Source of the DNA: Microthrixaceae bacterium
GTDB lineage: Bacteria; Actinomycetota; Acidimicrobiia; Acidimicrobiales; Microtrichaceae
Assembly (NCBI GenBank): GCA_020637215.1
Contig: JACJWI010000009.1
Span: 20,576 to 84,575 of the forward strand
Length of the DNA stretch: 64,000 nucleotides
Direction of reading: 5' to 3'
Under the pieces are notes generated by a model. It had not been told where the DNA came from. It saw only the letters and a program-made list of their open reading frames with translations, and did not search any database. Shown here piece by piece: positions 31,126-42,847 of this stretch. The translations under genes and the position numbers were made by a program. Numbering within the stretch: position 1 is the stretch's first letter; each line of letters starts with the position of its first letter.

Positions 31126-32082
31126 TCAGGCCGTCAGCAGCACGCGGAGACGGCGCCTCAGCTTCGGGCGGTCGAACTCCGACCACGCCTCCCGACAGTG
31201 GTCGTGAGCCCGATCGGAGCGCTCGTGCAGCGTGTTGGCGACGACGCCGGCGGCCAACGCCGCCCGGCCTCCCGCGCTGACGCCGATCGTCTCGATCCAC
31301 GCCGCCTGGACGTGGTGGTCCTGCAGCCGACCCAGGGTGTCCTGCAGGTCGGCGAGTCGACGTGGCACCTGCTCGAAGGCGCTGTCGGGGTACATGGGGG
31401 CGAACGCGGCGACCAGGTAGCGGAACCGCTTGATCGCCTTGCGCAGGTCGTGCCAGGCGTCGAGGTCGTCGGTGGACATGGCCCGCCGGCCCCGGCGGCG
31501 CAACCGGCGGTACGACGACCAGATGAGCTGGTCGGACACCTCGCCCATCGGTCGGCGGGCGTCCGGTCCGGGATCGCTGCCCCCCACCCGGACGACGGCG
31601 GTCATCGCCTGCCAGCGCCTCAGCAGGACCGGGTAGCGATCGCCGTCGAGCTCGGCGACCAGCGCGTCGAAGGCATCGGCGCGCTGTGCGGCGACGGCGA
31701 CGCGGAGCTCGTCGAGGGCGTCGTGCAGCTCCGGCACGACCGACCGGCCGAGGTCGTCCAGGTCGACGAGCAGGACGTCGAGGTCACGGACCGGCGAGGT
31801 CACGTTGGCGAACCACGACGCCAACGCCTGCAGCAGGACCAGTTCCTCGGACGGCAGGACGTCGGACCCCACCGCCATCAGCGACCGGGCCCGCCGCAGG
31901 CTCACCCGGAACCGGTGCAGATCCTCGGGATCACCGTCGGAGCGGACCGCCGGTTCGGCCTCCCGGAAGTCCTCGAGGTACGTACCGAGGACCAGCGGAA
32001 GGACGCGACCGGCGGGCTGGTCCCGGTCCGACGGCCCGAGCCGCCACGGATCGGTGCACCCTCCCGCCGTCGAACCGTCCAT
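31126..32082 (-). CDS. CHAD domain protein
   Basis: EDLHRFRVSLRRARSL, PVRDLDV, WHDLRKAIKRFRY, LQDTLGRLQDHHV. Start uncertain. Confidence 0.9.
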   Translation of the reverse strand: MDGSTAGGCTDPWRLGPSDRDQPAGRVLPLVLGTYLEDFREAEPAVRSDGDPEDLHRFRVSLRRARSLMAVGSDVLPSEELVLLQALASWFANVTSPVRDLDVLLVDLDDLGRSVVPELHDALDELRVAVAAQRADAFDALVAELDGDRYPVLLRRWQAMTAVVRVGGSDPGPDARRPMGEVSDQLIWSSYRRLRRRGRRAMSTDDLDAWHDLRKAIKRFRYLVAAFAPMYPDSAFEQVPRRLADLQDTLGRLQDHHVQAAWIETIGVSAGGRAALAAGVVANTLHERSDRAHDHCREAWSEFDRPKLRRRLRVLLTA

Positions 32083-32150
32083 CGGTTCAGTCTCGCAGGA
32101 CGACGGCGCGATCCGACGCCACCATCGGACGATTTCGGTCCCTCATCGGC

Positions 32151-32202
32151 GATTCCGATGACAGTTGAGTACCGCGGTTGTCGTGACTTGTCGTCAGAAA
32201 CC
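32151..32202. repeat. Intergenic repeat family A, copy 3
   Basis: gattccgatgacagttgagtaccgcggttgtcgtgacttgtcgtcagaaacc. Confidence 0.9.
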
Positions 32203-32223
32203 TGGGTTTGGGGATGGGGGGGC

Positions 32224-34572
32224 TCAGGCCGTGGTCTCGGCCACGTCATCGCCGAACGACGTCGACTGCGACTTGGAGTAGATCACCGAGCCGATGACGA
32301 CCACCAGCGCCGCGGCGGCGATGAAGTACCGGGCCACGTCGTTGTCGCTCAGCGACAGGATCGCCGGCAGCACCAGCAGCGACACCAGGTTCATTACCTT
32401 GATCAACGGGTTGATCGCAGGACCGGCGGTGTCCTTGAACGGGTCGCCGACCGTGTCGCCGATGACGACGGCCTTGTGCACATCGGAGCCCTTGCCGCCC
32501 AGGTTGCCCTCTTCGATGTACTTCTTGCCGTTGTCCCAGGCACCGCCCGAGTTCGACAGGAAGTTCGCCATCAGGGCGCCGACGACGATTGTGGCGGCCA
32601 GGTAGCCGCCGAGGGCCATGGCGCCGAGGCCGAAGCCGACGACGACCGGCATCAGCACCGCGAGCAGCGCCGGGGTGGTCAGCTCCCGCAGGGCGGCGCC
32701 GGTGCAGATGTCGATGACCGGCCCGTAGTCGGGCTTCTCGGAGTAGTCCATGATCCCGGGCTTCTCCCGGAACTGCCGCCGCACCTCCTGCACCACGGTG
32801 CCGGCGGTCCGGCCCACGGCCAGGATGGCCAGCGACGAGAACAGGAACACGACCGTGCCGCCGATGAGCGCTCCGGCGAAGGTCTTGGGATCGGCGATGT
32901 TGATCGACACGGCGTCGAACGCCGCGGCGACGTCGAGCTCGCGCACGGCGTTGCCGACCTCGGTCATGGCCGTCGACGCGATCGTCTCGCGGAACGACGC
33001 GAACAGGGCCACCGCGGCGATGACCGCGGATCCGATGGCGAAGCCCTTGGTCACGGCCTTGGTGGTGTTGCCGACGGTGTCGAGGCCGTCGAGGATCCGT
33101 TCGGTCTCACCCTCGAGCTCGCCGGACATCTCGGCGATGCCCTGGGCGTTGTCGGCGATCGGGCCGAAGGTGTCCTCGGCGACGACGATGCCGGTGGTCG
33201 ACAGCATGCCGATGCCGGTCAGGGCGACCATGTAGAAGGCGAACAGCGAGCTGCCCCCGCCCAGGCCGAGGCCGACCAGGATGGCGACGGCGATGGCGAC
33301 AACCGCCCACACCGCGGACTCCATGCCCGAGGAGATGCCCGACAGGACGACGGTCGCGGGACCGGTCCGTCCGGACTCGGCGATGTCCTTGACCGGCTTG
33401 AACTGGCTGGACGTGTAGTACTGGGTGATCCGGCTGGCGGCCTGGCCGAGCACGACGCCGGCGACGATGGCGATGAACATCCGCAGGCCGACGTTGCTGA
33501 CTTCGGAGCCACGGGGGTCACCCACATAGGCGAAGGCGATGACCGCCGCTCCGACCAGGGCGATGACCGACGCGACGTTGAGGCCCCGGTTGATCGGCTT
33601 GAGGGCGTCGGTCTCACCCGGACGGGCCTTGACGAGGAAGATCGACACGATCGACGCCAGCAGGCCGACGGCCATCATGGCCAGCGGGAAGATGAGGCCC
33701 TTGGCGGCGTTGCCGCCGCCGATGCCGATGGCCCGGAAGGCGGTGACGCCCAGGATGATGTTGGCGACCAGCACGACGCCGAACGACTCGAAGAGGTCCG
33801 AGGCCATGCCGGCGCAGTCACCGACGTTGTCGCCCACGTTGTCGGCGATGGTGGCCGGGTTGCGCTTGTCGTCCTCGGGGATGCCGGCCTCGACCTTGCC
33901 GACCAGGTCCGCGCCGACGTCGGCGGCCTTGGTGAAGATGCCGCCGCCGACCCGCAGGAACAGCGCCAGCAGCGACCCGCCGAAGCCGAAGCCGACCAGG
34001 ATGGCCGACGCGGTGTTCTGGAAGACCATGACGATGAGGGTGGCGCCGAACAGCCCCAGGCCGGCGGTGAACAGACCGATGGTGCCACCGGCGCGGAACG
34101 CGACCTGCAGCGCGGCGTCCATGGAACCGGTCTTGGCCGCCGCTGCGGTGCGGATGTTGGCGCGGGTGGCGAGCCACATGCCGAGGAAGCCGATGAAGCC
34201 CGAGAAGGCGGCTCCGGCCAGGAACGCGAGCGTGCGGAAGATGCCGGACTGGACCCGGTCGAGCCCCTCGGTCCCCGACACGTTCAGCACCTCGGTCGAG
34301 GTGGCGAACACCACGACGGCGAGGGGGACGACGATCAGCAGGATGGTGCGGAACTGGCGCTTGATGTAGGCCATCGCGCCTTCCTGGACCGCCGAGGCGA
34401 TCTCCTCCATCTCGGCGGTGCCGGTCTGCTTGCTCAGCACGCCCTGCATCATGAAGTAGCCGGCGATCAGGGCGATGGCGGCGACCGCCATGGAGAAGAT
34501 CAGCCAGAACCACTCGGAGCTACCGAGAGTGAAGATCTGGTAGCCGCCCTCGGCGGCGAAGGTCTGCGTCAT
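32224..34572 (-). CDS. hppA: Membrane pyrophosphatase, K+-independent H+-PPase type
   Basis: DVGADLVGKVE, DNVGDNVGD, DNAQGIAEMS, GDTVGDPFKDTAGP; GNTTKA carries the Lys of the K+-independent class. Confidence 0.95.
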   Translation of the reverse strand: MTQTFAAEGGYQIFTLGSSEWFWLIFSMAVAAIALIAGYFMMQGVLSKQTGTAEMEEIASAVQEGAMAYIKRQFRTILLIVVPLAVVVFATSTEVLNVSGTEGLDRVQSGIFRTLAFLAGAAFSGFIGFLGMWLATRANIRTAAAAKTGSMDAALQVAFRAGGTIGLFTAGLGLFGATLIVMVFQNTASAILVGFGFGGSLLALFLRVGGGIFTKAADVGADLVGKVEAGIPEDDKRNPATIADNVGDNVGDCAGMASDLFESFGVVLVANIILGVTAFRAIGIGGGNAAKGLIFPLAMMAVGLLASIVSIFLVKARPGETDALKPINRGLNVASVIALVGAAVIAFAYVGDPRGSEVSNVGLRMFIAIVAGVVLGQAASRITQYYTSSQFKPVKDIAESGRTGPATVVLSGISSGMESAVWAVVAIAVAILVGLGLGGGSSLFAFYMVALTGIGMLSTTGIVVAEDTFGPIADNAQGIAEMSGELEGETERILDGLDTVGNTTKAVTKGFAIGSAVIAAVALFASFRETIASTAMTEVGNAVRELDVAAAFDAVSINIADPKTFAGALIGGTVVFLFSSLAILAVGRTAGTVVQEVRRQFREKPGIMDYSEKPDYGPVIDICTGAALRELTTPALLAVLMPVVVGFGLGAMALGGYLAATIVVGALMANFLSNSGGAWDNGKKYIEEGNLGGKGSDVHKAVVIGDTVGDPFKDTAGPAINPLIKVMNLVSLLVLPAILSLSDNDVARYFIAAAALVVVIGSVIYSKSQSTSFGDDVAETTA

Positions 34573-34782
34573 GGGTTTCCCTCGTGATGTCGTCGCGGAC
34601 CGGGTGTCGGTCGGCGCGCGCCCGCTGCGGGATGCGGTGTGGGCGCGGACCGGGGACGGTTCCGGTCCCAGCGGTACCGGGGCAGTTCAGTGGACGGGGC
34701 GCCCGTCCGTCAAAATCCCGGCGGCGGACCGATCGGATCGACGGCCCGGAACCGTCACCGGTCGATCAGCCGGACGCGCCGC

Positions 34783-35451
34783 TCAGCCGGCGGCGTGCGC
34801 CTTCTTGGCGCGCCGCGACTTGATCACCTCGATGGCGATGGGGATCAGCGACACCGCCACCACCATCAGCAGGGCGAGCTCGATGTTGTCGGCGATCAAC
34901 GGCACGTTGCCCAGGAAGTAGCCGAGCAGGGTGACGCCGACGCCCCACAGGAAGCCGCCGACCACGTTGAAGCGCACGAAGGTGCCGTACTCCATCTGCC
35001 CGGCCCCGGCCACGATCGGACAGAAGGTCCGCACGATCGGCACGAACCTGGCCAGCACGATGGCCCGTGGGCCGTGGTGCTCGAAGAAGCTCTGCGCCTT
35101 CTCCAGGTGCTCCTGCTTGAAGAAGCGCGAGTCGGGACGGCTGAACAGGGCGGGGCCGGCCTTGCGTCCGAACAGGTAGCCGACCTGGTCGCCGGCGACC
35201 GCGGCGATGGCCACGCCCAGGCACAGCACCCAGATGTTGAACTGGACGTTGGGGAGCTTGTCCTCGAAGGTCCCCGCGGCGAACATCCCGGCGGTGAACA
35301 GCAGGGAGTCGCCCGGCAGGAAGAACCCGATCAGCAGGCCGGACTCCGCGAAGACGATGGCGAAGATGAGCAGGTAGCCGCCCCGGGAGATGATCTTCTC
35401 GGGGTCGAGCCAGTCCGGCAGCAGCGCGAACAGAGGGGCCAGGTTCAGCAC
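34783..35451 (-). CDS. DedA family membrane protein
   Basis: FAESGLLIGFFLPGDSLLF, GDQVGY, LARFVPIVRTF. Confidence 0.93.
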   Translation of the reverse strand: MLNLAPLFALLPDWLDPEKIISRGGYLLIFAIVFAESGLLIGFFLPGDSLLFTAGMFAAGTFEDKLPNVQFNIWVLCLGVAIAAVAGDQVGYLFGRKAGPALFSRPDSRFFKQEHLEKAQSFFEHHGPRAIVLARFVPIVRTFCPIVAGAGQMEYGTFVRFNVVGGFLWGVGVTLLGYFLGNVPLIADNIELALLMVVAVSLIPIAIEVIKSRRAKKAHAAG

Positions 35452-35476: not shown

Positions 35477-38400
35477 TCATCCCGACCCACCGGGGGCCGC
35501 GGCCGTCGGAGCGCCGGCAGGCGGTGTTGTCGTCGACGGGGTCGTCGACGGTGCTGTCGTGGACGAGGCCGATGAGCGCGACAGCGCCTGCTCCGCCCGG
35601 CGCATCAGGTCCCGGGCATCGGCCACCGCATCCTGGTAGCCGCCCAGGTCCCCGGCCTTCAGCTTCTTGTCGGCCTCGTCGAAGCGGGCGTCCGCGTCGG
35701 CGAGCAGTTCCGTGGCGCTGCGGCCCTCGGAGCCGGACGGTTCGGAGTCCGAGGGCTCGGTCGTGGACGGGGCCGGTCCCTCGGTGGGGGTCAGGGTGTC
35801 GGCGGGCTGCTCGACCGCTCCGCTGTCGTCGCCGTCGAGCAGATCGGCCACTGCGGAGTCGATCGTCTCACCGAAGCCGACCGAGTCCCCGTTGGTCACC
35901 GCCACCCGGGTCAACGCGTAGCGGCCGCTCTGCTCGGCCTTGGCGTAGATGGGGCGGGCGTAGAGCAACGAGTTGCCGAACGGCAGGATCAGCATGTTGC
36001 CGTAGCGGACGCTCGACCCGTTCCGACCGACGATCGTCTGGTACTGCGACACCGGTTCGTAGGTGACGATCTTCTGGTGCGCCTGCAGCGGACCGTCCAC
36101 CTTGGGTCCGTTCGAGTCGGAGTCGCCGCTGCCCATCACGATCTGGCGGAGCTGCCCGTAGGAACCGGGGTCGTTGGAGGCGATCATCACCGAGGTGAGG
36201 TTGCGACCGCTCTCGTCGTTGGAGGACAGGACGAACGGGCGGGTCAGCAGGAACTCGGCCGGGGCATCGGGCGTCAGCTGCATCATCTGGTAGTACGGCT
36301 CGATGCGGGGCAGGTTGGTGGTGGTCTGACCGGTCGCCGGGTCTTGGGAGACAGCGGTGGACGCCGAGTTCGGCGGCTGCTGGGCGATGCTCCAGCGGTC
36401 GCTGTTGTTGAAGAACGCCGAGGGGTCCGACTGGTGGTATCGACCCCAGGCCTCGGTCTGGACCTTGAACATCAGCTCCGGGTAGCGGAAGTGCCGGCTG
36501 AGCGACTCGGGGATGTCGGTCTGGTACAGGTCGGGGAACGCCCTGGCCCAGGCGCGGATGATCGGGTCCTTCCTGCCGCCGTAGAGCGTGTCGGTCAGGT
36601 ACAGCGTGACGGTGCCGTCGTAGGCGTCGACGACGGCCTTGACGCTGTTGCGCATGTAGTTGAACGAGCCCTGGAGGCGGGCGTCGATGCTCGAGGCGTC
36701 GATCGACTGGCCGTACGGGTAGGTGTCGGCGGTGGTGTAGGCGTCGATGACGTACTTGATGCGGCCGTCGACCATGACCGGGTAGGGATCGGTGTCCAGG
36801 GTCAGGTAGGGGGCGACGGCGTTGACCCGCTCGGTGACGTCGCGGCGGTAGATGACCTTGGAGCGCTCGGTCAGGTTGCTCGAGATCATCGGTTCGATCT
36901 GCCCGAACCGCAGGGCGAACGCGGCGCGGCGGGCCATCGAGTCGAGCGGGACGCCCGAACTCCCGGTGTAGGACGTGGAGACCTGATCGGTCGACAGCTC
37001 CTTCTGGTCGGTGCCGACGATCGCGTAGCCCCCCATCCCCTCACCGTGGTAGATCTCGGGCCGCTTCAGCTCCGGGAGGCCCTTGGTCTGAGCGGGGATC
37101 CCCCACACCAGGAAGTCGGGTTCACCCCGGCTGTTGGTCGAGTTGGCCGGGGCCAGCGCCAGGCCGTACCCGTGGGTGAAGATCAGGTGCAGCTTCTCCC
37201 ACGTGGCGTCCTTGATGCCGGCCGCGTTCAGCTCGCGGGCCGACACGATGACCGGGACGCGGTCCGGTGCCGGGGTCTGGCCGTCGGCGGCCTCGACCAC
37301 GTAGCGGTCCACGTCGATGTCGTCGAACCGGTAGAACTCGCGCTCGAACTCCAGCTCCTGCACGGTGGGCTGGATGACCGCCGGGTCGAGCAGTCGGGCG
37401 TCGGCCAGGTTGGTCCGCTGGGCCTCGATCGCGGCGGGGGTGACCGTCTTCTGGTAGTCGAAGGCGACCTCGGTGACGTCGCCGAGACCGAGCGCCTCAC
37501 GCGTCGCGTCGATGTTGCGGGTGATGAACGGCCGCTCCTTGGAGAGCTCGGCCGGCGACACCTGGAAGCGCTGCACGAACGCCGGGTAGACCGACCCGAC
37601 GATCAGGGCGACCAGCACCCACAGGGCCACGACGATGCCGGGCATGATCCAGCCCCGCCGCCAGATGTTCACGATGAACAGCACGGCGACGAACACCGAG
37701 ATCAGGATCAGGAACTCGGTCGCCGGGATCCGGGCGTTGACCGCCGTGTAGCCCGCGCCGTCGAACGAGCTGCCCGACGCGAAGGTCAGCTCGAAGCGCT
37801 GGAGGGCGTAGTCGGCGGCCTTGACCAGGGCGGCGAGGGCGAGCAGGACCGACAGCTGCGCCTTCGCGTTCTGGGTGATGCGCTCCCCCATCGGCTGCAG
37901 GCGGATCGCTCCGTTCAGGTAGTGGACGACCGCGACGATCACGGCGGTGACCAGCAGGAACGCGAAGAGCCAGTCGACCACCAACGACAGGAACGGGAGC
38001 TTGAAGACGTAGAAGCCGATGTCGGTGCCGAACTGCTCGTCGGCCTGACCGAAGGACCCGCCGAAGCGGAACAGCAGCCACGCCTTCCACTGGTTCGCCG
38101 CGCTCAGCCCCGGGACGAGCGCGACGAGCAGGGCCAGGGCGAAGCTCAGGACACGCTGTCGGCCGTCGACCAGCTGGCGGTAGCGGACGACGACCTCGTC
38201 CTCGGGACCGACCACCGGCCGGAACCGGGGAGCCAGGCGTTCCGCCACCAGCAGGTTCACGAAGAGGATGACGAAGAACACCAACGTCACCGCGACGCCC
38301 AGCGTGAGGCGGGCCGACAGCAGCCGTCGCCAGACCGCGCTGAGGTCCAACGAGTCGAACCACAGGAAGTCGGTCCAGAAGGTGGCGATCGCCCGGAGGG

Positions 38401-38518
38401 ACAGCGCGAGCAGGATCAGGACGCCGGCGAGGATCCCGAGAGCCCAGCGGGCCCGGTTGGGGCGCGGCCCCCGTTCCTTGCGCTCGCGCCGCGGGGGCCG
38501 GGGCATGTCGTCGGGCAT
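35477..38518 (-). CDS. UPF0182 family membrane protein
   Basis: FWTDFLWFDSL, DIGFYVFKLPF, DIDVDRY, FTHGYG, YMRNSVKAVVDAYDGTV. Confidence 0.93.
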   Translation of the reverse strand: MPDDMPRPPRRERKERGPRPNRARWALGILAGVLILLALSLRAIATFWTDFLWFDSLDLSAVWRRLLSARLTLGVAVTLVFFVILFVNLLVAERLAPRFRPVVGPEDEVVVRYRQLVDGRQRVLSFALALLVALVPGLSAANQWKAWLLFRFGGSFGQADEQFGTDIGFYVFKLPFLSLVVDWLFAFLLVTAVIVAVVHYLNGAIRLQPMGERITQNAKAQLSVLLALAALVKAADYALQRFELTFASGSSFDGAGYTAVNARIPATEFLILISVFVAVLFIVNIWRRGWIMPGIVVALWVLVALIVGSVYPAFVQRFQVSPAELSKERPFITRNIDATREALGLGDVTEVAFDYQKTVTPAAIEAQRTNLADARLLDPAVIQPTVQELEFEREFYRFDDIDVDRYVVEAADGQTPAPDRVPVIVSARELNAAGIKDATWEKLHLIFTHGYGLALAPANSTNSRGEPDFLVWGIPAQTKGLPELKRPEIYHGEGMGGYAIVGTDQKELSTDQVSTSYTGSSGVPLDSMARRAAFALRFGQIEPMISSNLTERSKVIYRRDVTERVNAVAPYLTLDTDPYPVMVDGRIKYVIDAYTTADTYPYGQSIDASSIDARLQGSFNYMRNSVKAVVDAYDGTVTLYLTDTLYGGRKDPIIRAWARAFPDLYQTDIPESLSRHFRYPELMFKVQTEAWGRYHQSDPSAFFNNSDRWSIAQQPPNSASTAVSQDPATGQTTTNLPRIEPYYQMMQLTPDAPAEFLLTRPFVLSSNDESGRNLTSVMIASNDPGSYGQLRQIVMGSGDSDSNGPKVDGPLQAHQKIVTYEPVSQYQTIVGRNGSSVRYGNMLILPFGNSLLYARPIYAKAEQSGRYALTRVAVTNGDSVGFGETIDSAVADLLDGDDSGAVEQPADTLTPTEGPAPSTTEPSDSEPSGSEGRSATELLADADARFDEADKKLKAGDLGGYQDAVADARDLMRRAEQALSRSSASSTTAPSTTPSTTTPPAGAPTAAAPGGSG

Positions 38519-38535
38519 CCGCACGGCGGATGAGG

Positions 38536-40917
38536 TTACCGAGGAGCCGGAACCAGGATGCATCGGCATCCCGGGTGCGCCGGCGGGACGATGTCGCCGG
38601 TGGGGAAGGCGGACCCGCACGGCGTCGGGCCGGCCAGGGCGTTGTCCTCGGCGTCGCTGCAGGGCAGGCCGCCGTTGTCGACCATCCAGCACCACGACGT
38701 CCCGTCGCCGGCCGCGGCCTGCTCGCCCAGGGCGAAGCCCGCGGTCGCCAGGTCCCCCGCCAGATCGGGCACCGAGCGGGTCCGCCACTCGCGGTACGCG
38801 GCACGGACGTGGTCGGCCATCTCGGCCAGCTCGACGCCGTCGGACTCGGCGTTCTCGAGAGCACGGGCGAGGTGCGCCCGCCGCAGCTCGAGCAGGTCGG
38901 CGACCCGCACCTCGAGACCCCCCTCGACCACGTCCGCGTCGATCCGAGCCACCGCGGAGTCGACGTCGTCGCCGGACTCGGCCGCCCAGAACCGTGCTCC
39001 GGCGTCTGCCGCAGCAGCGAAGTCGTCGTGCAGGGCGGCGGCGAAGACGCCGAGGTCGTCGCCGACCGGCAGCAGGACCTCGAGCTCGACCCGTCCGCGA
39101 CGGATCCGGCGGAGTCGGTCGAGAACCTCGTTCTGCTCGTCGGAGACCAGGCGCTTGAGCGATCGGGTCATCGCCTTCTCCACCCCGCCGAGCAGGTCGT
39201 CGCGTCGGTCGAGCGCCGAGGACTCCGCCGCCGCCTCCTCGAGCGCGACGTCGAGCTCGGCGGCGGCGTCGAGATCGACCACCGCGTCGACCGGCACCAC
39301 CTCGGTCTCGACGGTCGTCGTCTCGACCGAGTCGACCTCGACGACGGTGACCCCGTCGTCCGCGGAATCGGCGACCACGGCGACGACGGTCGACTCGCGC
39401 ACCGTGGTCTCGATGACCGCGTCGACCGCGGTGGTCTCGATCGCCACCACGTCGGCCCCACCGGCGTCACCGGCGTCACCGGCGTCGCCACCATCGCCGT
39501 CGTCGAGGTCGGCGGGCTCGAGCACCACGACAGGGGCGAGCTCGTCGTCGGACCCCTCCGCTCCGCGAGAGCCGTCGTCGTCCCCGCTCTCGTCGCCTTC
39601 GTCGTCCTCCTCGTCGTCGTAGAGGTCGAGGTCGACGTCGACCGACCCGTCCGACGGGTCCACCGACGGGTGGACGGCCTCGGAGTCCGCTCGACGTTCG
39701 GCGCGGATCCGCTCGAAGAGGTCGTGCACCGTGGCGCCCGGACTCGGCTCGACGTCGGCATCGGCATCGGTGGGCGGCCCGTCGCTGTCGACCACCTCTA
39801 GCTCGGGCGACGCCACGGCATCGTCCTGCGGGTCGGCACCGGCGTCCGCGTCGTCGGCGGTTTCGGCATCCTGCGCGTCGAGGCCATCGTCGCCGGCATC
39901 GACGTCGTCGACCGCGTCCGGTCCCGACGGCAGCGCGCCCGGACCGAGCCCCGTCTCGAGCTCGGCGACGACCTCGTCGATGTCGTCGACCACCGCCGCC
40001 GCGGCCGCATCCGCGGCCCGCTGGATCTGGTCGTCGCCGGCCGCGAGGTCCTCGATCACCTGGACGACCCGATCCGCGGCGGCGCCGAGGGACTCGACGA
40101 TCCGGTCACGACCGGCTCGTGCGGCCTCCATCTGGCGGCGGGCCGTCCGACGGCGTTCCGCCAGGTCCTGCAACATCTGCTTGCGGAGCTGGCGGGCCTC
40201 GTCGACCATCGCCCGACCCTCGGCCCGGGACCGCTCGACCTCGGCGTCGGCCGCGACGCGTGCCTCGTCACGTAGGCGAACACCTTCGGCGCGCGCCGCG
40301 TCGAGCTCGATCTGCGCCGCTTCGCGGATGCCCGACGCGACCGCCTCGGCCTCGGCGGTCCTCTCGTCGAGGACGGTCTTGGCCTTGGCCAGCAGTGCGT
40401 CGTGCTCCGCCGATGCCTCGGCACGGACGCGGTCGGCGTGCTCCTGGGCGTCGGTCCGGACCGCGGCCGCCTCGTCGCGGAGGGCGGTGGCCTCGTCGGT
40501 CAGCCTTGCCGCGGTCGCGGTGGCCTCCTCCTCGCTGTCGGCGATCAGGCGGGCGGCGCGCTCCTCGCTGTCGGCGACCAGCTGAGCGGCCTGCGTCTCG
40601 GCCTTGGAGCGGATCTCGGTGGCCGCCTCGCGCGCCGCGGCCACGATGCGAGCGGTCTCCTCGCCCAGGACGGTGGTGATCCGCTGCTCGTCCAGCTCCT
40701 GGGACTGCTCGAGGCGCCGCTCCAGGTCGGCCAGACGGGCCGTCAGGCGATCGTCGCGCTCCTTCCAGGCCCGCAGAGCATCCGCGGCCCGCCCCAGCAG
40801 CGCCCGCACCTCGACGGGTTCGAAGCCCTTGCGGGTCCGCCCGAACTCCGCCGACCCCAGCGTCCCGGGATCCAGTTCCGGCGGATCGGGCACAGGATCG
40901 GCAGGAAGGTCGGTCAT
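38536..40917 (-). CDS. DivIVA-domain coiled-coil protein with acidic linker and MuF-like Cys/His C-terminus
   Basis: FGRTRKGFEPVEVRALL (DivIVA), Ala/Glu/Arg coiled coil, Asp-rich linker, C-terminal WCW...PC...PPAHPGCRC. Confidence 0.8.
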   Translation of the reverse strand: MTDLPADPVPDPPELDPGTLGSAEFGRTRKGFEPVEVRALLGRAADALRAWKERDDRLTARLADLERRLEQSQELDEQRITTVLGEETARIVAAAREAATEIRSKAETQAAQLVADSEERAARLIADSEEEATATAARLTDEATALRDEAAAVRTDAQEHADRVRAEASAEHDALLAKAKTVLDERTAEAEAVASGIREAAQIELDAARAEGVRLRDEARVAADAEVERSRAEGRAMVDEARQLRKQMLQDLAERRRTARRQMEAARAGRDRIVESLGAAADRVVQVIEDLAAGDDQIQRAADAAAAAVVDDIDEVVAELETGLGPGALPSGPDAVDDVDAGDDGLDAQDAETADDADAGADPQDDAVASPELEVVDSDGPPTDADADVEPSPGATVHDLFERIRAERRADSEAVHPSVDPSDGSVDVDLDLYDDEEDDEGDESGDDDGSRGAEGSDDELAPVVVLEPADLDDGDGGDAGDAGDAGGADVVAIETTAVDAVIETTVRESTVVAVVADSADDGVTVVEVDSVETTTVETEVVPVDAVVDLDAAAELDVALEEAAAESSALDRRDDLLGGVEKAMTRSLKRLVSDEQNEVLDRLRRIRRGRVELEVLLPVGDDLGVFAAALHDDFAAAADAGARFWAAESGDDVDSAVARIDADVVEGGLEVRVADLLELRRAHLARALENAESDGVELAEMADHVRAAYREWRTRSVPDLAGDLATAGFALGEQAAAGDGTSWCWMVDNGGLPCSDAEDNALAGPTPCGSAFPTGDIVPPAHPGCRCILVPAPR

Positions 40918-41028: not shown

Positions 41029-42309
41029 TCAGTTGGCTCGGCGCACACCGCCGGGATGAAGCGCCACCACGGCGTCGTCGAGCGTCTTTACCGGGACCAG
41101 CCGGACGCCACCTCCGGCGACCTCGCGCATCTGGCGTTCCTCGTCGTCGGGGGTGGCCTCGGGGTACAGGAAGGTCCGGACGCCCGCCCGCTTCACCGCC
41201 GCCACCTTCTGGACGATGCCGCCGATCGGGCCGACCGTTCCGTCGGGGAGGATCTCGCCGGTGACGGCGACCTCCTTGCCGTCGGTCAACGACTCGGGGG
41301 TCATCCGGTCGACGACGGCCAGCGCCCAGGCCAACCCCGCCGACGGACCGGTCACGTCTCCGGAGTCGATGTCCACCCGCACCGGGGAGTCGACCGAGGG
41401 AGCGTCGGGTTCGACCGAGATGCCGAGCACCGGCCGGACTCCGGGGGTCGCCTCGGCCGGCGAGGCGGCGGCGCCGTCGGAACCGACGGTGCTCGATGTG
41501 GTGGATCCGGGCGGTCTGGTCGTGGTGGTCGACGCGGCGTCGTCCTCGGTGCGCGCCGAGCCCAGGGTGATCGACTCCGCCACCGTCGTGATGTCCTTGC
41601 CCGAACCCCGGCGGGCGGTGACCTCGACGGTGTCGCCGGGCACCTTCCCGCGGAGGCCGGCCTGGATGTCGGAGGGGAGCCGCACGTCGTGTCCGTCGAC
41701 CGACGTGATGACGTCGCCGACCCGGAGCTTGCCGACCGAACCGCCGCCCTCGGCCACACCGAGCACCCGGGCACCGCGACCGGTGAACTCCGCCGGGTAC
41801 CCCAGGTACTGGAGGGCGACCTTGGTGGCGATCAGCTTGGACAGGTCCATCCGCTGCTGGTTGGCCCGACGCGAGGCGTCGCGCCCTTCGGGGCCGTAGA
41901 CGTCCTCCTCGGATCGGATCTCGACCGCGTCGTCGATGACGCCCCGCAGCAGCGTGGCGAGCGACGCCTGGTCCACGTACACAGTCGTGAACATGACGTC
42001 GCCGTCGGTCGTGTAGGAGGGTGCGCCCGACACGTCGATCCGCGTCTCGGCCGGACGAACCGAACCGGGCTGGAACAGGTAGTACGGCGTCGGGATGAAC
42101 AGGACCCCGGCGAGCACCGCCAGCACCGCAAGACCGACTCCGCCCCACAGCCAGCGGCGGCGACGGGACCGGGTCGAGCGCACCGTCTCGACGTGCGGTT
42201 CGGACGGGTCGCCGACGGGTTCGGCACCGACGGGTTCGGCGCTCACGTCCGGGTCTGCTCCGGGGCGCTCCGACGGAGGGTCGGCAGTCGGTACGCTGGG
42301 CGGGGTCAT
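41029..42309 (-). CDS. PDZ/Lon-like S16 protease (YlbL family)
   Basis: PYYLFQPGSV, PDZ-like GDVITSVDG, GPSAGL (catalytic Ser), GPIGGIVQK (catalytic Lys). Confidence 0.92.
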   Translation of the reverse strand: MTPPSVPTADPPSERPGADPDVSAEPVGAEPVGDPSEPHVETVRSTRSRRRRWLWGGVGLAVLAVLAGVLFIPTPYYLFQPGSVRPAETRIDVSGAPSYTTDGDVMFTTVYVDQASLATLLRGVIDDAVEIRSEEDVYGPEGRDASRRANQQRMDLSKLIATKVALQYLGYPAEFTGRGARVLGVAEGGGSVGKLRVGDVITSVDGHDVRLPSDIQAGLRGKVPGDTVEVTARRGSGKDITTVAESITLGSARTEDDAASTTTTRPPGSTTSSTVGSDGAAASPAEATPGVRPVLGISVEPDAPSVDSPVRVDIDSGDVTGPSAGLAWALAVVDRMTPESLTDGKEVAVTGEILPDGTVGPIGGIVQKVAAVKRAGVRTFLYPEATPDDEERQMREVAGGGVRLVPVKTLDDAVVALHPGGVRRAN

Positions 42310-42384
42310 GGGTCGGTCACCGTCATCTCGTGCTGATCGCATCGACGCGACCGGACCCGCATCCGCGACCTGTGCAGGCTCGCC

Positions 42385-42738
42385 GTGCCGACGCTGATCG
42401 TCGGTCTGGCCGTGGTGGCGCTGTCCACCATCGGGTTCGCTGTCGCCATGTTCGGCCGGCGACCGCTCCCCCAGCCTGCCACGGCCGCTCCGGCGACCGC
42501 TCCGGTGCCTGTGGCCACCGTCAGCGAGGCCCCCGCCGGCCGACCGGTCCGCCGGGGGACGCTCCGCCGATCCGACGACGTCTCCGCCCACGACGTTCCC
42601 CGCCTGCAGGTGGAGGTTCCCGGTCCGGTGCGCATCCGCTCGGCGTTCATCCTGGCTCTGGGCGTGCTGGCCGTGGCGGCCGTCGCCGGCGTGCTGTTGA
42701 GCGTCGTGGTCGTGGGCTTCTTCACCGTCATCGGCTGA
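42385..42738 (+). CDS. Small membrane protein
   Basis: Hydrophobic N- and C-terminal helices; no family recognised. Confidence 0.5.
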   Translation: MPTLIVGLAVVALSTIGFAVAMFGRRPLPQPATAAPATAPVPVATVSEAPAGRPVRRGTLRRSDDVSAHDVPRLQVEVPGPVRIRSAFILALGVLAVAAVAGVLLSVVVVGFFTVIG

Positions 42739-42847
42739 GCCCACCGACCGTCACCCGCGGCCGACGCCCCGCGGACACCCGGACGCGACCGCACGCCGGT
42801 CACCCCACGAGGAGGTGAACCGGCGTGCGGTCCGGGAAACGATCGTC

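What the first reader, a model, noticed from the sequence alone, without database searches (positions are those of the whole stretch)
38536..40917. DivIVA domain fused through a coiled coil and acidic linker to a phage MuF-like metal-binding C-terminus
The N-terminus has the DivIVA curvature-sensing motif. The C-terminus WCWMVD...PCSDAEDN...FPTG...PPAHPGCRC resembles the Cys/His end of phage Mu gpF-like head proteins, yet the gene sits in the housekeeping UPF0182-PDZ cluster with no phage genes nearby. Inference: a domesticated phage domain on a polar scaffold.
Basis: inference. Interest (0 to 1): 0.58.

Follow-up and report, generated by a model that had tools for sequence, protein, structure and literature searches.

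The report
Cellular DivIVA protein with phage MuF domain
A housekeeping gene conserved across a whole class of actinobacteria joins a cell-pole scaffold domain (DivIVA) to a domain otherwise known from phage heads (MuF/gp7), and it always sits directly in front of the membrane protein UPF0182, which suggests that the phage domain was recruited as a docking module for a cell-envelope machine.

Summary
ORF 38536-40917 (-) encodes a 793-aa protein with five parts:
- a DivIVA N-domain (Pfam 32.5 bits, cut-off 28);
- an Ala/Glu/Arg-rich helical region;
- a ~250-aa acidic linker (net charge -74) holding a near-invariant LF[AE]R[IL]RA helix;
- a ~225-aa C-terminal domain.

The whole C-terminal domain, not only its last 80 aa, is homologous to the phage MuF/SPP1 gp7 head-morphogenesis domain. 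The evidence is PHROG 2662 at E 3e-9, hhalign at 98.9% (E 1e-17) against genuine viral PF04233 proteins, and a pLDDT-95 model whose best viral fold matches are nearly all MuF or head-morphogenesis proteins. The query itself stays below Pfam's and NCBIfam's own MuF thresholds.

The gene is cellular. It is mostly single-copy and was found in 135 of 162 good Acidimicrobiia genomes, and also in Nitriliruptoria. In 80 of 80 loci it lies directly upstream of UPF0182, usually just after the PDZ-Lon protease gene. Cellular copies separate from viral ones in one well-supported split.

Best reading: a cytoplasmic adaptor for the UPF0182 membrane complex. This step is inferred. I found no paper describing the family.

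The parts
38536..40917 (-). Whole gene, 793 aa: DivIVA N-domain, helical region, acidic linker, MuF-like C-domain
   Evidence: ORF list and translation. More than 495 full-length homologues. 1685 clusters at 50% identity hold the C-domain.
40528..40851 (-). DivIVA domain, residues 23-130
   Evidence: Pfam PF05103 at E 9.5e-8, 32.5 bits, cut-off 28. Weak match to the solved DivIVA N-domain 7o39. F25, G31 and V37 are conserved in nearly all of the 105 homologues that have this region: 97, 99 and 99 of 105 rows, with 6 rows gapped.
39958..40527 (-). Ala/Arg/Glu-rich helical (presumed coiled-coil) region, residues 131-320, with a conserved block at ~234-272
   Evidence: Composition. Conservation profile GR.MV.EA...R...L.DLA.RR..AR. 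Weak likeness to the ATP synthase b stalk. The coiled coil itself is inferred.
39217..39957 (-). Acidic low-complexity linker, residues 321-567
   Evidence: Residues 321-584 are 31% D+E and 3% K+R, net charge -74. Low alignment occupancy and variable length among homologues. pLDDT is mostly below 50 in model m4f737381e974.
39694..39732 (-). Conserved short helix inside the linker, TVHDLFERIRAER (residues 396-408), family motif [LI]-F-[AE]-[RK]-[IL]-R-A
   Evidence: F401 is present in 103 and R405 in 98 of 105 homologues. A loose pattern for the motif matches 182 of 192 full-length proteins. Predicted helix with pLDDT about 80 amid disorder. It is the N-terminus of the short forms that lack DivIVA.
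38539..39216 (-). MuF-like C-terminal domain, residues ~568-793
   Evidence: AF2 model of residues 585-793 with pLDDT 95. BFVD fold matches to MuF/head-morphogenesis proteins. PHROG 2662 at E 3.3e-9. Conservation starts at about residue 568.
38539..38904 (-). Part equivalent to the Pfam Phage_Mu_F core, residues 672-793
   Evidence: hhalign A1 against A2: 117 aligned columns, probability 98.9%, E 9.7e-18.
38560..38661 (-). Candidate metal-binding cluster: C753, H781, C784, C786
   Evidence: Conserved in 102, 102, 105 and 105 of 105 homologues. The same W..D..C..(C)...F..G..PPAHPGCRC pattern ends viral PF04233 proteins. Metal binding itself is inferred.
35477..38518 (-). UPF0182 membrane protein gene, 1013 aa; its ATG is 17 nt after the stop of the finding's gene
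   Evidence: Pfam PF03699 at E 1.7e-235. Start and sequence. Directly downstream in 80 of 80 loci and in 9 of 10 loci outside the class.
41029..42744 (-). PDZ + Lon_C protease gene. Coordinates give the longest frame; the true start is probably near 42.1 kb, because homologues are 340-380 aa
   Evidence: Pfam Lon_C and PDZ_2. Found upstream on the same strand in every locus whose flank reaches far enough, except L055.
34783..35451 (-). DedA/VTT-domain membrane protein gene, 25 nt after UPF0182; a possible last gene of the operon
   Evidence: Pfam VTT_dom at E 1.4e-21. I did not check whether this adjacency is conserved.

Best explanation
This is a genuine, vertically inherited cellular gene. 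It is not a prophage remnant.

The protein has no predicted membrane span and should be cytoplasmic. It has four modules:
1. A DivIVA-type N-domain plus a helical region, which in known DivIVA proteins oligomerise and associate with the membrane.
2. A long acidic disordered tether.
3. A near-invariant short helix, LF[AE]R[IL]RA.
4. A ~225-aa C-terminal domain homologous to the phage MuF/SPP1 gp7 head-morphogenesis domain, with a conserved Cys-His-Cys-Cys cluster.

In phages the MuF domain is a docking module: gp7 binds the portal ring and carries cargo into the head. Here the domain has been taken into a conserved operon, PDZ-Lon protease, then DivIVA-MuF, then UPF0182.

Most likely mechanism: the MuF-like domain, perhaps together with the LFARIRA helix, docks on the cytoplasmic face of the oligomeric UPF0182 membrane complex. 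A recent preprint links UPF0182 to FtsH-dependent membrane-protein quality control. The DivIVA end would then tie that complex to particular membrane sites or to a scaffold.

Shown: the domain composition, the homology to MuF, the phyletic range, the synteny and the single split of cellular from viral copies.
Inferred: metal binding, the partner, the localisation and the direction of capture (phage to cell).
For: Homology to MuF:
- PHROG 2662 at E 3.3e-9, hit by 34 of 36 members.
- hhalign probability 98.9%, E 9.7e-18.
- BFVD fold matches with TM up to 0.78, from a pLDDT-95 model.
- The nearest viral relatives are genuine PF04233 proteins, 9 of 10 over the gathering cut-off and three of them fused to a portal domain.

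Cellular and vertically inherited:
- 135 of 162 good-quality genomes of the class have a match, mostly one copy.
- More than 472 species genomes encode a relative.
- No canonical PF04233 match at E<=0.001 in the own genome, and one weak below-cut-off match in 150 further genomes of the phylum.

Link to UPF0182:
- UPF0182 lies directly downstream on the same strand in 80 of 80 loci and in 9 of 10 loci outside the class, including Nitriliruptoria.
- The intergenic gap is 17 nt.
- In G173 the two genes are duplicated as a pair, each MuF-like gene next to its own UPF0182 copy.

Other points:
- Cellular copies separate from viral ones in one split with 99/99 support.
- The domain has net charge -16, so gp7-like DNA binding is unlikely.
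- The canonical DivIVA sits elsewhere, after sepF-yggT.
- UPF0182 is linked to FtsH/YccA and is predicted to form a tetrameric dome (bioRxiv 10.1101/2025.11.14.688347).
- gp7 binds the portal (PMC5576092).
Against: - There is no direct evidence of any interaction. I could not run a complex prediction.
- UPF0182 does not need this protein. Family f62 (1-Mb genomes) and f61 keep UPF0182 (42 of 47 and 7 of 7) but have no MuF-like match (0 of 47) or almost none (1 of 7). Most of the phylum outside this class also lacks it.
- Some lineages lack the DivIVA part (f64) and others lack the Cys/His end (f7), so neither end is indispensable.
- The query is below the Pfam and NCBIfam MuF thresholds.
- A thin profile built only from Mu F relatives and gp7 gives no significant match (E 0.36).
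- Synteny could instead reflect a link with the PDZ-Lon protease or only shared regulation.
Confidence: 0.55

Rival explanations
1. The MuF-like domain is a metal-dependent enzyme or a sensor, not a docking module. The DivIVA scaffold would only position it, and its substrate need not be UPF0182.
For: A Cys-His-Cys-Cys cluster and several acidic residues (D747, D755, D758, N759) are nearly invariant. The biochemical function of MuF domains is unknown even in phages (PMC5576092).
Against: Most invariant residues look structural (W, G, P, L, T) or are candidate metal ligands. No known catalytic family matched in Pfam, NCBIfam or PDB. Lineages that have lost the Cys/His end keep the gene in the same place. 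In characterised MuF proteins the effector activities lie in other, fused domains (PMC5512222).
Confidence: 0.15
2. The protein works mainly with the upstream PDZ-Lon protease, or generally in cell division as a second DivIVA. Its adjacency to UPF0182 would only reflect an old conserved gene order.
For: PDZ-Lon lies upstream on the same strand in nearly all loci with enough flank. PDZ-Lon and UPF0182 are adjacent even where the gene is absent. The N-terminus is a DivIVA domain.
Against: The link to UPF0182 is tighter than the link to PDZ-Lon. The gaps are 17 nt against 111 nt here. In three loci PDZ-Lon lies ~3 kb away and outside the class it is often several kb away, whereas UPF0182 always abuts. 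The gene is duplicated together with UPF0182 in G173. The short forms lack DivIVA.
Confidence: 0.15
3. A prophage remnant or phage-derived cargo, or a defence decoy that mimics MuF to trap phage portals.
For: The domain family is otherwise overwhelmingly viral (PMC5576092).
Against: The gene is mostly single-copy and class-wide with fixed synteny. No phage genes are nearby. Cellular copies fall on one side of a single well-supported split in the tree. Defence genes are typically patchy and mobile, which this gene is not.
Confidence: 0.04
4. The likeness to MuF is convergent: a small Cys/His knuckle on a generic helical bundle.
For: Searches of solved structures return only generic helical bundles. 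The thin Mu F/gp7-only profile is not significant. The Pfam threshold is not reached.
Against: The sequence-profile matches span 117-158 residues, not only the knuckle. The fold matches cover almost the whole 209 aa, with TM up to 0.78. The motif W..D..C...DN..G..F..G..PPAHPGCRC is shared in detail with viral proteins that pass the Pfam cut-off.
Confidence: 0.03

Closest known systems
Phage MuF / SPP1 gp7 head-morphogenesis (minor capsid) domain: Pfam PF04233, TIGR01641, PHROG 2662 (portal-MuF fusions)
   Same: The helical fold plus small C-terminal beta/Cys-His element is shared. So are the core motifs (an R..WR-type helix, W..D, C..(C), F..G, PPAHPGCRC). Profile-profile and fold matches are significant.
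   Different: It is encoded in a cellular operon, with no portal, terminase or capsid genes nearby. It sits at the extreme C-terminus behind a DivIVA scaffold, whereas phage MuF usually stands alone, follows a portal domain or precedes effector domains. Most members have lost the second Cys of the CxxC pair. It is acidic. It falls below the curated family thresholds.
DivIVA / Wag31 polar scaffold proteins (PF05103)
   Same: The N-terminal domain passes the Pfam cut-off and is followed by a long helical region.
   Different: It is not the dcw-cluster DivIVA; a 409-aa paralogue after sepF-yggT fills that place. It is two to three times longer, with an acidic linker and a foreign C-domain. The Phe17-equivalent position (my own positional reading) is Arg.
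UPF0182 module of Actinobacteria (MSMEG1959 / Rv3193c, with the PDZ-Lon protease Rv3194c as neighbour)
   Same: The same PDZ-Lon and UPF0182 gene pair; that Rv3194c and Rv3193c are the adjacent M. tuberculosis pair is from my own knowledge. UPF0182 was recently tied to FtsH/YccA and membrane-protein homeostasis (bioRxiv 10.1101/2025.11.14.688347).
   Different: That preprint names YccA and a small membrane protein as predicted partners, and no DivIVA-MuF protein. In Acidimicrobiia and some other classes a third gene is inserted between the two.
MuF polymorphic toxins and polyvalent proteins of temperate phages (Jamet et al. 2017, PMC5576092; Iyer et al. 2017, PMC5512222)
   Same: A MuF domain is used as one module of a multidomain protein.
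   Different: Those proteins carry toxin or effector domains and are encoded among prophage head genes. This one has no effector domain, and the order of modules is reversed.

Membership tests
Phage_Mu_F / SPP1 gp7 (PF04233, TIGR01641) | Score above the curated family threshold (Pfam 29.6 bits; NCBIfam 39.65 bits) | tested here: not met
   Pfam gives no hit for the query C-terminus even at E<=10. TIGR01641 gives E 0.99, 9.8 bits, over the last 19 residues only. The six-frame search of the own genome finds nothing at E<=0.001. Ten of 36 family members give weak hits, the best at E 3.4e-4.
Phage_Mu_F / SPP1 gp7 (PF04233, TIGR01641) | Significant profile-level homology to undisputed members | tested here: met
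   hhalign A1 against A2 (seven viral proteins, six of them over the Pfam cut-off, plus gp7 and Mu F): probability 98.9%, E 9.7e-18. PHROG 2662 at E 3.3e-9, hit by 34 of 36 members. The viral rows of A2 were found through a pattern taken from the query family, which favours close relatives. A profile of Mu F relatives plus gp7 alone gave E 0.36.
Phage_Mu_F / SPP1 gp7 (PF04233, TIGR01641) | Shared fold | tested here: met
   Model pLDDT 95. Foldseek on BFVD gave 36 matches at E<=1e-3, and nearly all named rows among the 50 listed are MuF, minor-capsid or head-morphogenesis proteins; TMq 0.5-0.78. These are predicted against predicted structures. No solved MuF structure turned up.
Phage_Mu_F / SPP1 gp7 (PF04233, TIGR01641) | C-terminal signature W..D..C..C...F..G..PP.H..CRC | tested here: met
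   The query reads W744..D747..C753..(A756)..F771.TG..PPAHPGCRC. The cluster residues are kept in 102-105 of 105 homologues. The second Cys is present in only 29 of 105.
Phage_Mu_F / SPP1 gp7 (PF04233, TIGR01641) | Encoded in a phage head/packaging module next to portal and terminase genes | tested here: not met
   The neighbours are PDZ-Lon, UPF0182, DedA and H+-PPase. The same cellular context holds in 80 of 80 loci.
Phage_Mu_F / SPP1 gp7 (PF04233, TIGR01641) | Binds a portal oligomer and is packaged into capsids | not testable with these tools
   This needs biochemistry. It is known for gp7 only (PMC5576092).
DivIVA (PF05103) | Score above the Pfam gathering threshold | tested here: met
   32.5 bits against 28, residues 23-130 matched to profile positions 9-118 of 131. 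The six-frame search gave 36.2 bits.
DivIVA (PF05103) | Membrane-binding loop with an exposed hydrophobic and a basic residue (B. subtilis F17/R18) | tested here: inconclusive
   By position the query has R29-K30. Across homologues position 29 is R in 70 and F in 23. The equivalence rests on my own reading of the motif and on a weak alignment to 7o39.
DivIVA (PF05103) | Canonical gene position after sepF-yggT in the division cluster (Wag31-type) | tested here: not met
   A separate 409-aa DivIVA gene occupies that position at G000:C1. NF050102 Wag31 scored 15.3 bits against a cut-off of 260.
DivIVA (PF05103) | Localisation to poles or septa | not testable with these tools
   This needs microscopy.
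MuF polymorphic toxins (Jamet et al. 2017) | MuF domain followed by a C-terminal toxin domain, in a prophage | tested here: not met
   The MuF-like domain ends the protein. No toxin domain was found in Pfam or NCBIfam. The context is not a prophage.

The most novel reading that the evidence does not exclude
A phage head-morphogenesis domain (MuF) was captured once, early in Actinomycetota evolution. It became the docking module of a housekeeping envelope machine. Through it and a conserved LFARIRA helix, a DivIVA-type scaffold would hold the UPF0182 'dome' complex, and with it FtsH-linked membrane-protein quality control, at defined membrane sites. This would be a first case of MuF working outside a virion. 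Because the family is large, acidic, soluble and models well, it could also show what MuF domains recognise in portals.
Probability: 0.35. Interest if true: 0.72.

Novelty: new variant of a known kind. Interest (0 to 1): 0.6.

Why it matters
MuF is one of the commonest phage head domains. Jamet et al. report it in 57% of the siphoviruses they surveyed. Its biochemical function is still unknown, and I found no solved structure.

This is a large family, with more than 1600 clusters at 50% identity. It is vertically inherited and cellular, and its genomic partner is fixed. That gives an independent way to ask what the domain binds.

The finding also adds a candidate cytoplasmic component to the UPF0182 module. 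That module is near-universal in Actinobacteria and essentially uncharacterised until a 2025-26 preprint tied it to FtsH. In public records these proteins are named only 'DivIVA domain-containing' or 'hypothetical'.

Tried and rejected
- PDB by sequence, with the single domain and with the family profile: only chance-level hits such as ribosomal protein uS19, YacP and ZorA.
- Foldseek against PDB: nothing at E<=0.001.
- VIA-align against 48,161 PDB representatives: only generic helical bundles, Z<=9.4, covering residues 1-153 of the model. This is not evidence of a new fold.
- hhalign against a thin profile of close Mu F relatives plus gp7: E 0.36, in the same register but not significant. My search for Mu F homologues returned only relatives at 70% identity or more, which was a poor use of one search.
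- tblastn of the last 114 aa against 50,697 phage records: 24 records at E 0.1-0.8. Some are annotated as MuF-like, capsid protease or portal proteins, but each hit alone is insignificant.
- Canonical PF04233 in the own genome and in 150 genomes of the phylum: one weak hit, which is a member of this same family.
- Pfam accession PF28068, precomputed on a minority of homologues, could not be identified. It is absent from the local library, and the Atlas did not name it.
- Literature searches for DivIVA with MuF, Phage_Mu_F or Acidimicrobiia: no papers.
- I could not tell whether the LFARIRA helix packs on the domain in model m4f737381e974, because coordinates and PAE are not available to me.
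- The scan's earlier notes hold nothing on this locus or on look-alike sequences.
Full report
**1. The observation**

The longest frame on the minus strand at 38536..40917 encodes 793 aa. Pfam places a DivIVA domain at residues 23-130 (E 9.5e-8, 32.5 bits, cut-off 28).

- Residues 131-320 are Ala/Arg/Glu-rich.
- Residues 321-584 are 31% Asp+Glu and 3% Lys+Arg, with net charge -74.
- The C-terminus carries the quoted WCWMVD...PCSDAEDN...FPTG...PPAHPGCRC string.

The gene lies between a PDZ+Lon_C protease gene and a UPF0182 gene, all on the minus strand. The PDZ-Lon stop at 41029 is 111 nt before the ATG at 40917. The stop at 38536 is 17 nt before the UPF0182 ATG at 38518. A simple scan found no terminator-like site between these genes. 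A DedA/VTT gene follows UPF0182 after 25 nt, then an H+-pyrophosphatase gene. A HEAT-repeat gene and a branched-chain amino-acid transporter lie on the other side. There are no phage genes.

**2. What the C-terminus is**

Direct scans of the query against curated MuF models fail:
- Pfam gives nothing for the C-terminal 224 or 104 aa, even at E<=10.
- NCBIfam TIGR01641 (SPP1 gp7) gives only E 0.99 over the last 19 residues.

The family as a whole gives a clear answer.

*Size and shape of the family.* An exhaustive HMMER search with residues 585-793 found 1685 clusters at 50% identity. In the 150 best hits listed, the domain lies at or within a few residues of the C-terminal end in nearly all, and usually matches over its full ~205 aa.

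*Weak Pfam signal.* I aligned 36 members (A1). Scanned one by one, the only recurrent Pfam family is Phage_Mu_F, in 10 of 36 with a best E of 3.4e-4.

*PHROGs.* The query domain hits phrog_2662 at E 3.3e-9. The match is to profile positions 542-708 of 717, which is the MuF end of portal-MuF fusion proteins. Thirty-four of 36 members hit it, and the next families are 'minor head protein', 'head maturation protease' and 'head morphogenesis'.

*Viral relatives.* A scan of IMG/VR found 38 viral loci, with up to 35% identity over 115 aa. Their proteins end in strings such as W..DERVCSTCEDN...GFSSGD.YPPAHPGCRC. Nine of the ten I scanned pass the Pfam Phage_Mu_F cut-off, and three are fused to a portal domain.

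*Profile against profile.* A1 against an alignment of seven such viral proteins plus SPP1 gp7 and Mu F gives probability 98.9% and E 9.7e-18 over 117 columns, covering residues 672-793. This is favoured by how the viral rows were chosen, because they were found through a pattern from the query family. A thin profile of close Mu F relatives plus gp7 alone gives the same register but E 0.36.

*Fold.* An AlphaFold2 model of residues 585-793 has pLDDT 95. Foldseek against BFVD gives 36 matches at E<=1e-3. Nearly all named rows among the 50 listed are head-morphogenesis, minor-capsid or MuF proteins. TM normalised to the query reaches 0.78, and alignments cover most of the model's length.

So the whole ~225-aa module has the MuF-protein fold, not only its Cys/His end. 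The solved-structure libraries gave nothing specific. The ESM Atlas also places a Phage_Mu_F cluster and a portal cluster among the nearest named neighbours, at 0.89 and 0.87; these are leads only.

**3. Conserved features**

In 105 full-length homologues the following residues are kept:
- C753 in 102, H781 in 102, C784 in 105 and C786 in 105;
- R709 and W744 in all 105, D758 in 104, and T773 and G774 in 104 each.

The second Cys of the classical MuF CxxC pair (position 756) is present in only 29 of 105. It is Ala in the query. A metal site built from Cys-His-Cys-Cys is plausible but remains inferred.

Within the otherwise unalignable acidic linker there is a short island, TVHDLFERIRAER (residues 396-408). 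F401 is kept in 103 and R405 in 98 of 105. A loose pattern for it matches 182 of 192 full-length proteins, 240-330 residues upstream of the CRC motif. In a model of residues 385-793 it is a helix with pLDDT about 80 amid disorder. I could not check whether it contacts the domain.

**4. Distribution and context**

*Taxa.* A pattern scan of one genome per species found at least 472 genomes with a relative. The best 80 are almost all labelled Acidimicrobiia or unclassified Actinomycetota (two MAG labels differ). They include Microthrixaceae, Ilumatobacteraceae, Iamiaceae, Acidimicrobiaceae, and records labelled Aciditerrimonas ferrireducens and Ferrithrix thermotolerans. Dermatobacter hominis also has it.

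*Within the class.* 135 of 162 good-quality genomes have a match, mostly one copy. The main exception is family f62 (genomes of about 1 Mb), with 0 of 47; f61 has 1 of 7.

*Outside the class.* In the same phylum, only a few families have it. That tally includes one unpublished genome, G148, on which no other claim rests. One of these families is Nitriliruptoria (Nitriliruptorales, Egibacteraceae, Euzebyales), where NCBI names the protein 'DivIVA domain-containing protein'.

*Synteny.* In all 80 named loci UPF0182 follows directly on the same strand. PDZ-Lon lies upstream on the same strand wherever the flank reaches, except in L055; in three loci it is ~3 kb further away. In 9 of 10 loci outside the class UPF0182 again abuts. 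Eight of the ten proteins read there begin with a textbook DivIVA motif (...F.VSLRGYDRDEV.AFL); the two tandem copies in G003 do not.

*Not obligatory for UPF0182.* UPF0182 itself is nearly universal in the class, in 156 of 162 good genomes, including f62 and f61. In a 1-Mb f62 genome PDZ-Lon is followed directly by UPF0182, as in mycobacteria (the mycobacterial order is from my own knowledge).

*Duplication as a pair.* In G173 each of two MuF-like genes sits next to its own UPF0182 copy.

*Variants.*
- Family f64 has short proteins of 321-333 aa. They begin at the LFAKIR-type helix and have no DivIVA part.
- A related 410-aa form keeps only the conserved helical block.
- A family-f7 protein keeps DivIVA and the helical half of the C-domain, but ends before the Cys/His element.

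Apart from such truncated forms, the constant core is the helix, the linker and the MuF-like domain, next to UPF0182.

**5. Origin**

A maximum-likelihood tree of the ~125-aa core holds 34 cellular and 30 viral sequences. All cellular copies lie on one side of a branch with 99/99 support. Under a midpoint root they nest among viral sequences, far from gp7 and Mu F. The root is arbitrary and the viral sample is biased towards relatives of the query. The tree therefore shows a single origin of the cellular family and only fits a capture from a phage.

The main argument for that direction is distribution. MuF occurs in phages of many hosts (PMC5576092). The cellular family is confined to part of one phylum.

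**6. Not the main DivIVA**

The genome has a second DivIVA gene of 409 aa, directly after sepF and yggT. That is the canonical division-cluster position.

**7. Mechanism**

*What is known.*
- SPP1 gp7 binds the portal oligomer and is present in one or two copies per capsid. MuF serves as the virion-targeting module of many multidomain phage proteins.
- UPF0182 proteins have seven membrane helices and a large outer domain. They are predicted to form a tetrameric dome, and they correlate phenotypically with FtsH and YccA in three actinobacteria.

*What I infer.* The MuF-like domain docks on the cytoplasmic side of the UPF0182 complex. The acidic tether and the DivIVA end connect it to a membrane-associated scaffold. 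The UPF0182 N-tail here is strongly basic (MPDDMPRPPRRERKERGPRPNRAR), while the linker and the domain are acidic, which would suit such a contact. That last point is speculation.

*Limits.* The partnership cannot be obligatory for UPF0182, because many lineages lack the gene.

*Rivals.* An enzymatic role for the Cys/His domain; a primary link to PDZ-Lon or to cell division; a prophage remnant or decoy; convergence. Each is weighed in its own section of this report.

**8. Novelty**

No paper in the searched library mentions DivIVA together with MuF, Phage_Mu_F or Acidimicrobiia. Where a source names these proteins, the name refers to DivIVA or a coiled coil, or is 'hypothetical'.

Both domains are known kinds. 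The new points are their fusion, the cellular and vertically inherited setting of a MuF domain, the conserved linker helix, and the fixed link to UPF0182. I rate it a new variant of a known kind, of moderate to good interest.

Noticed in passing
L152:2895-3896 (-), L153:4975-5940 (+), L151:4773-6005 (+): In family f64 of the same class, the gene between PDZ-Lon and UPF0182 is only 321-410 aa. It starts at the LFAKIR/IFSKVR helix (or at the conserved helical block) and has no DivIVA domain, so the DivIVA end is dispensable in some lineages.
   Followed up: partly
L150:2684-4279 (-): A family-f7 genome has a 531-aa DivIVA protein at the same place. It ends ...VFRLWRTDEAERRLRSIG, which keeps the helical half of the MuF-like domain but lacks the Cys/His end. 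Several class members match the profile only up to about position 210-230 of 267.
   Followed up: partly
L147:4947-8823 (+): In the streamlined ~1-Mb genomes of family f62, PDZ-Lon is followed within 30 nt by UPF0182 with no gene between them. The DivIVA-MuF gene is cleanly absent, although UPF0182 is kept in 42 of 47 genomes.
   Followed up: partly
L139:6735-9426 (-); G173 contigs C19 and C23: One genome outside the class has two tandem MuF-like genes upstream of UPF0182. G173 has two unlinked copies of the pair MuF-like gene plus UPF0182.
   Followed up: no
window 34783-35451 (-): A DedA/VTT-family membrane protein gene starts 25 nt after UPF0182 and may belong to the same operon. I did not check whether this adjacency is conserved.
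   Followed up: no
window 31198-34587 (+) and 36077-38533 (+): Very long open frames of 1129 and 818 aa lie opposite the real H+-PPase and UPF0182 genes and have no family match. They are typical shadow ORFs of a ~70% G+C genome.
   Followed up: partly
L113:3082-6159 (+): A viral contig encodes a single 1026-aa protein that joins a portal domain, a 2H phosphoesterase (2'-5' RNA ligase-like) domain and a MuF domain. It is an example of the polyvalent head proteins described by Iyer et al. 2017.
   Followed up: no
homologues P0023, P0030, P0031, P0050: A minority of homologues carry a precomputed Pfam accession, PF28068.1, that is absent from the local Pfam copy. If it is a recent model for part of this family, the novelty claim would need adjusting.
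   Followed up: partly
L154:2866-4684 (-): In G228 the DivIVA part (409-aa frame) and the MuF part (315-aa frame) lie in overlapping frames. This is either a frameshift or sequencing error, or a real split gene.
   Followed up: no
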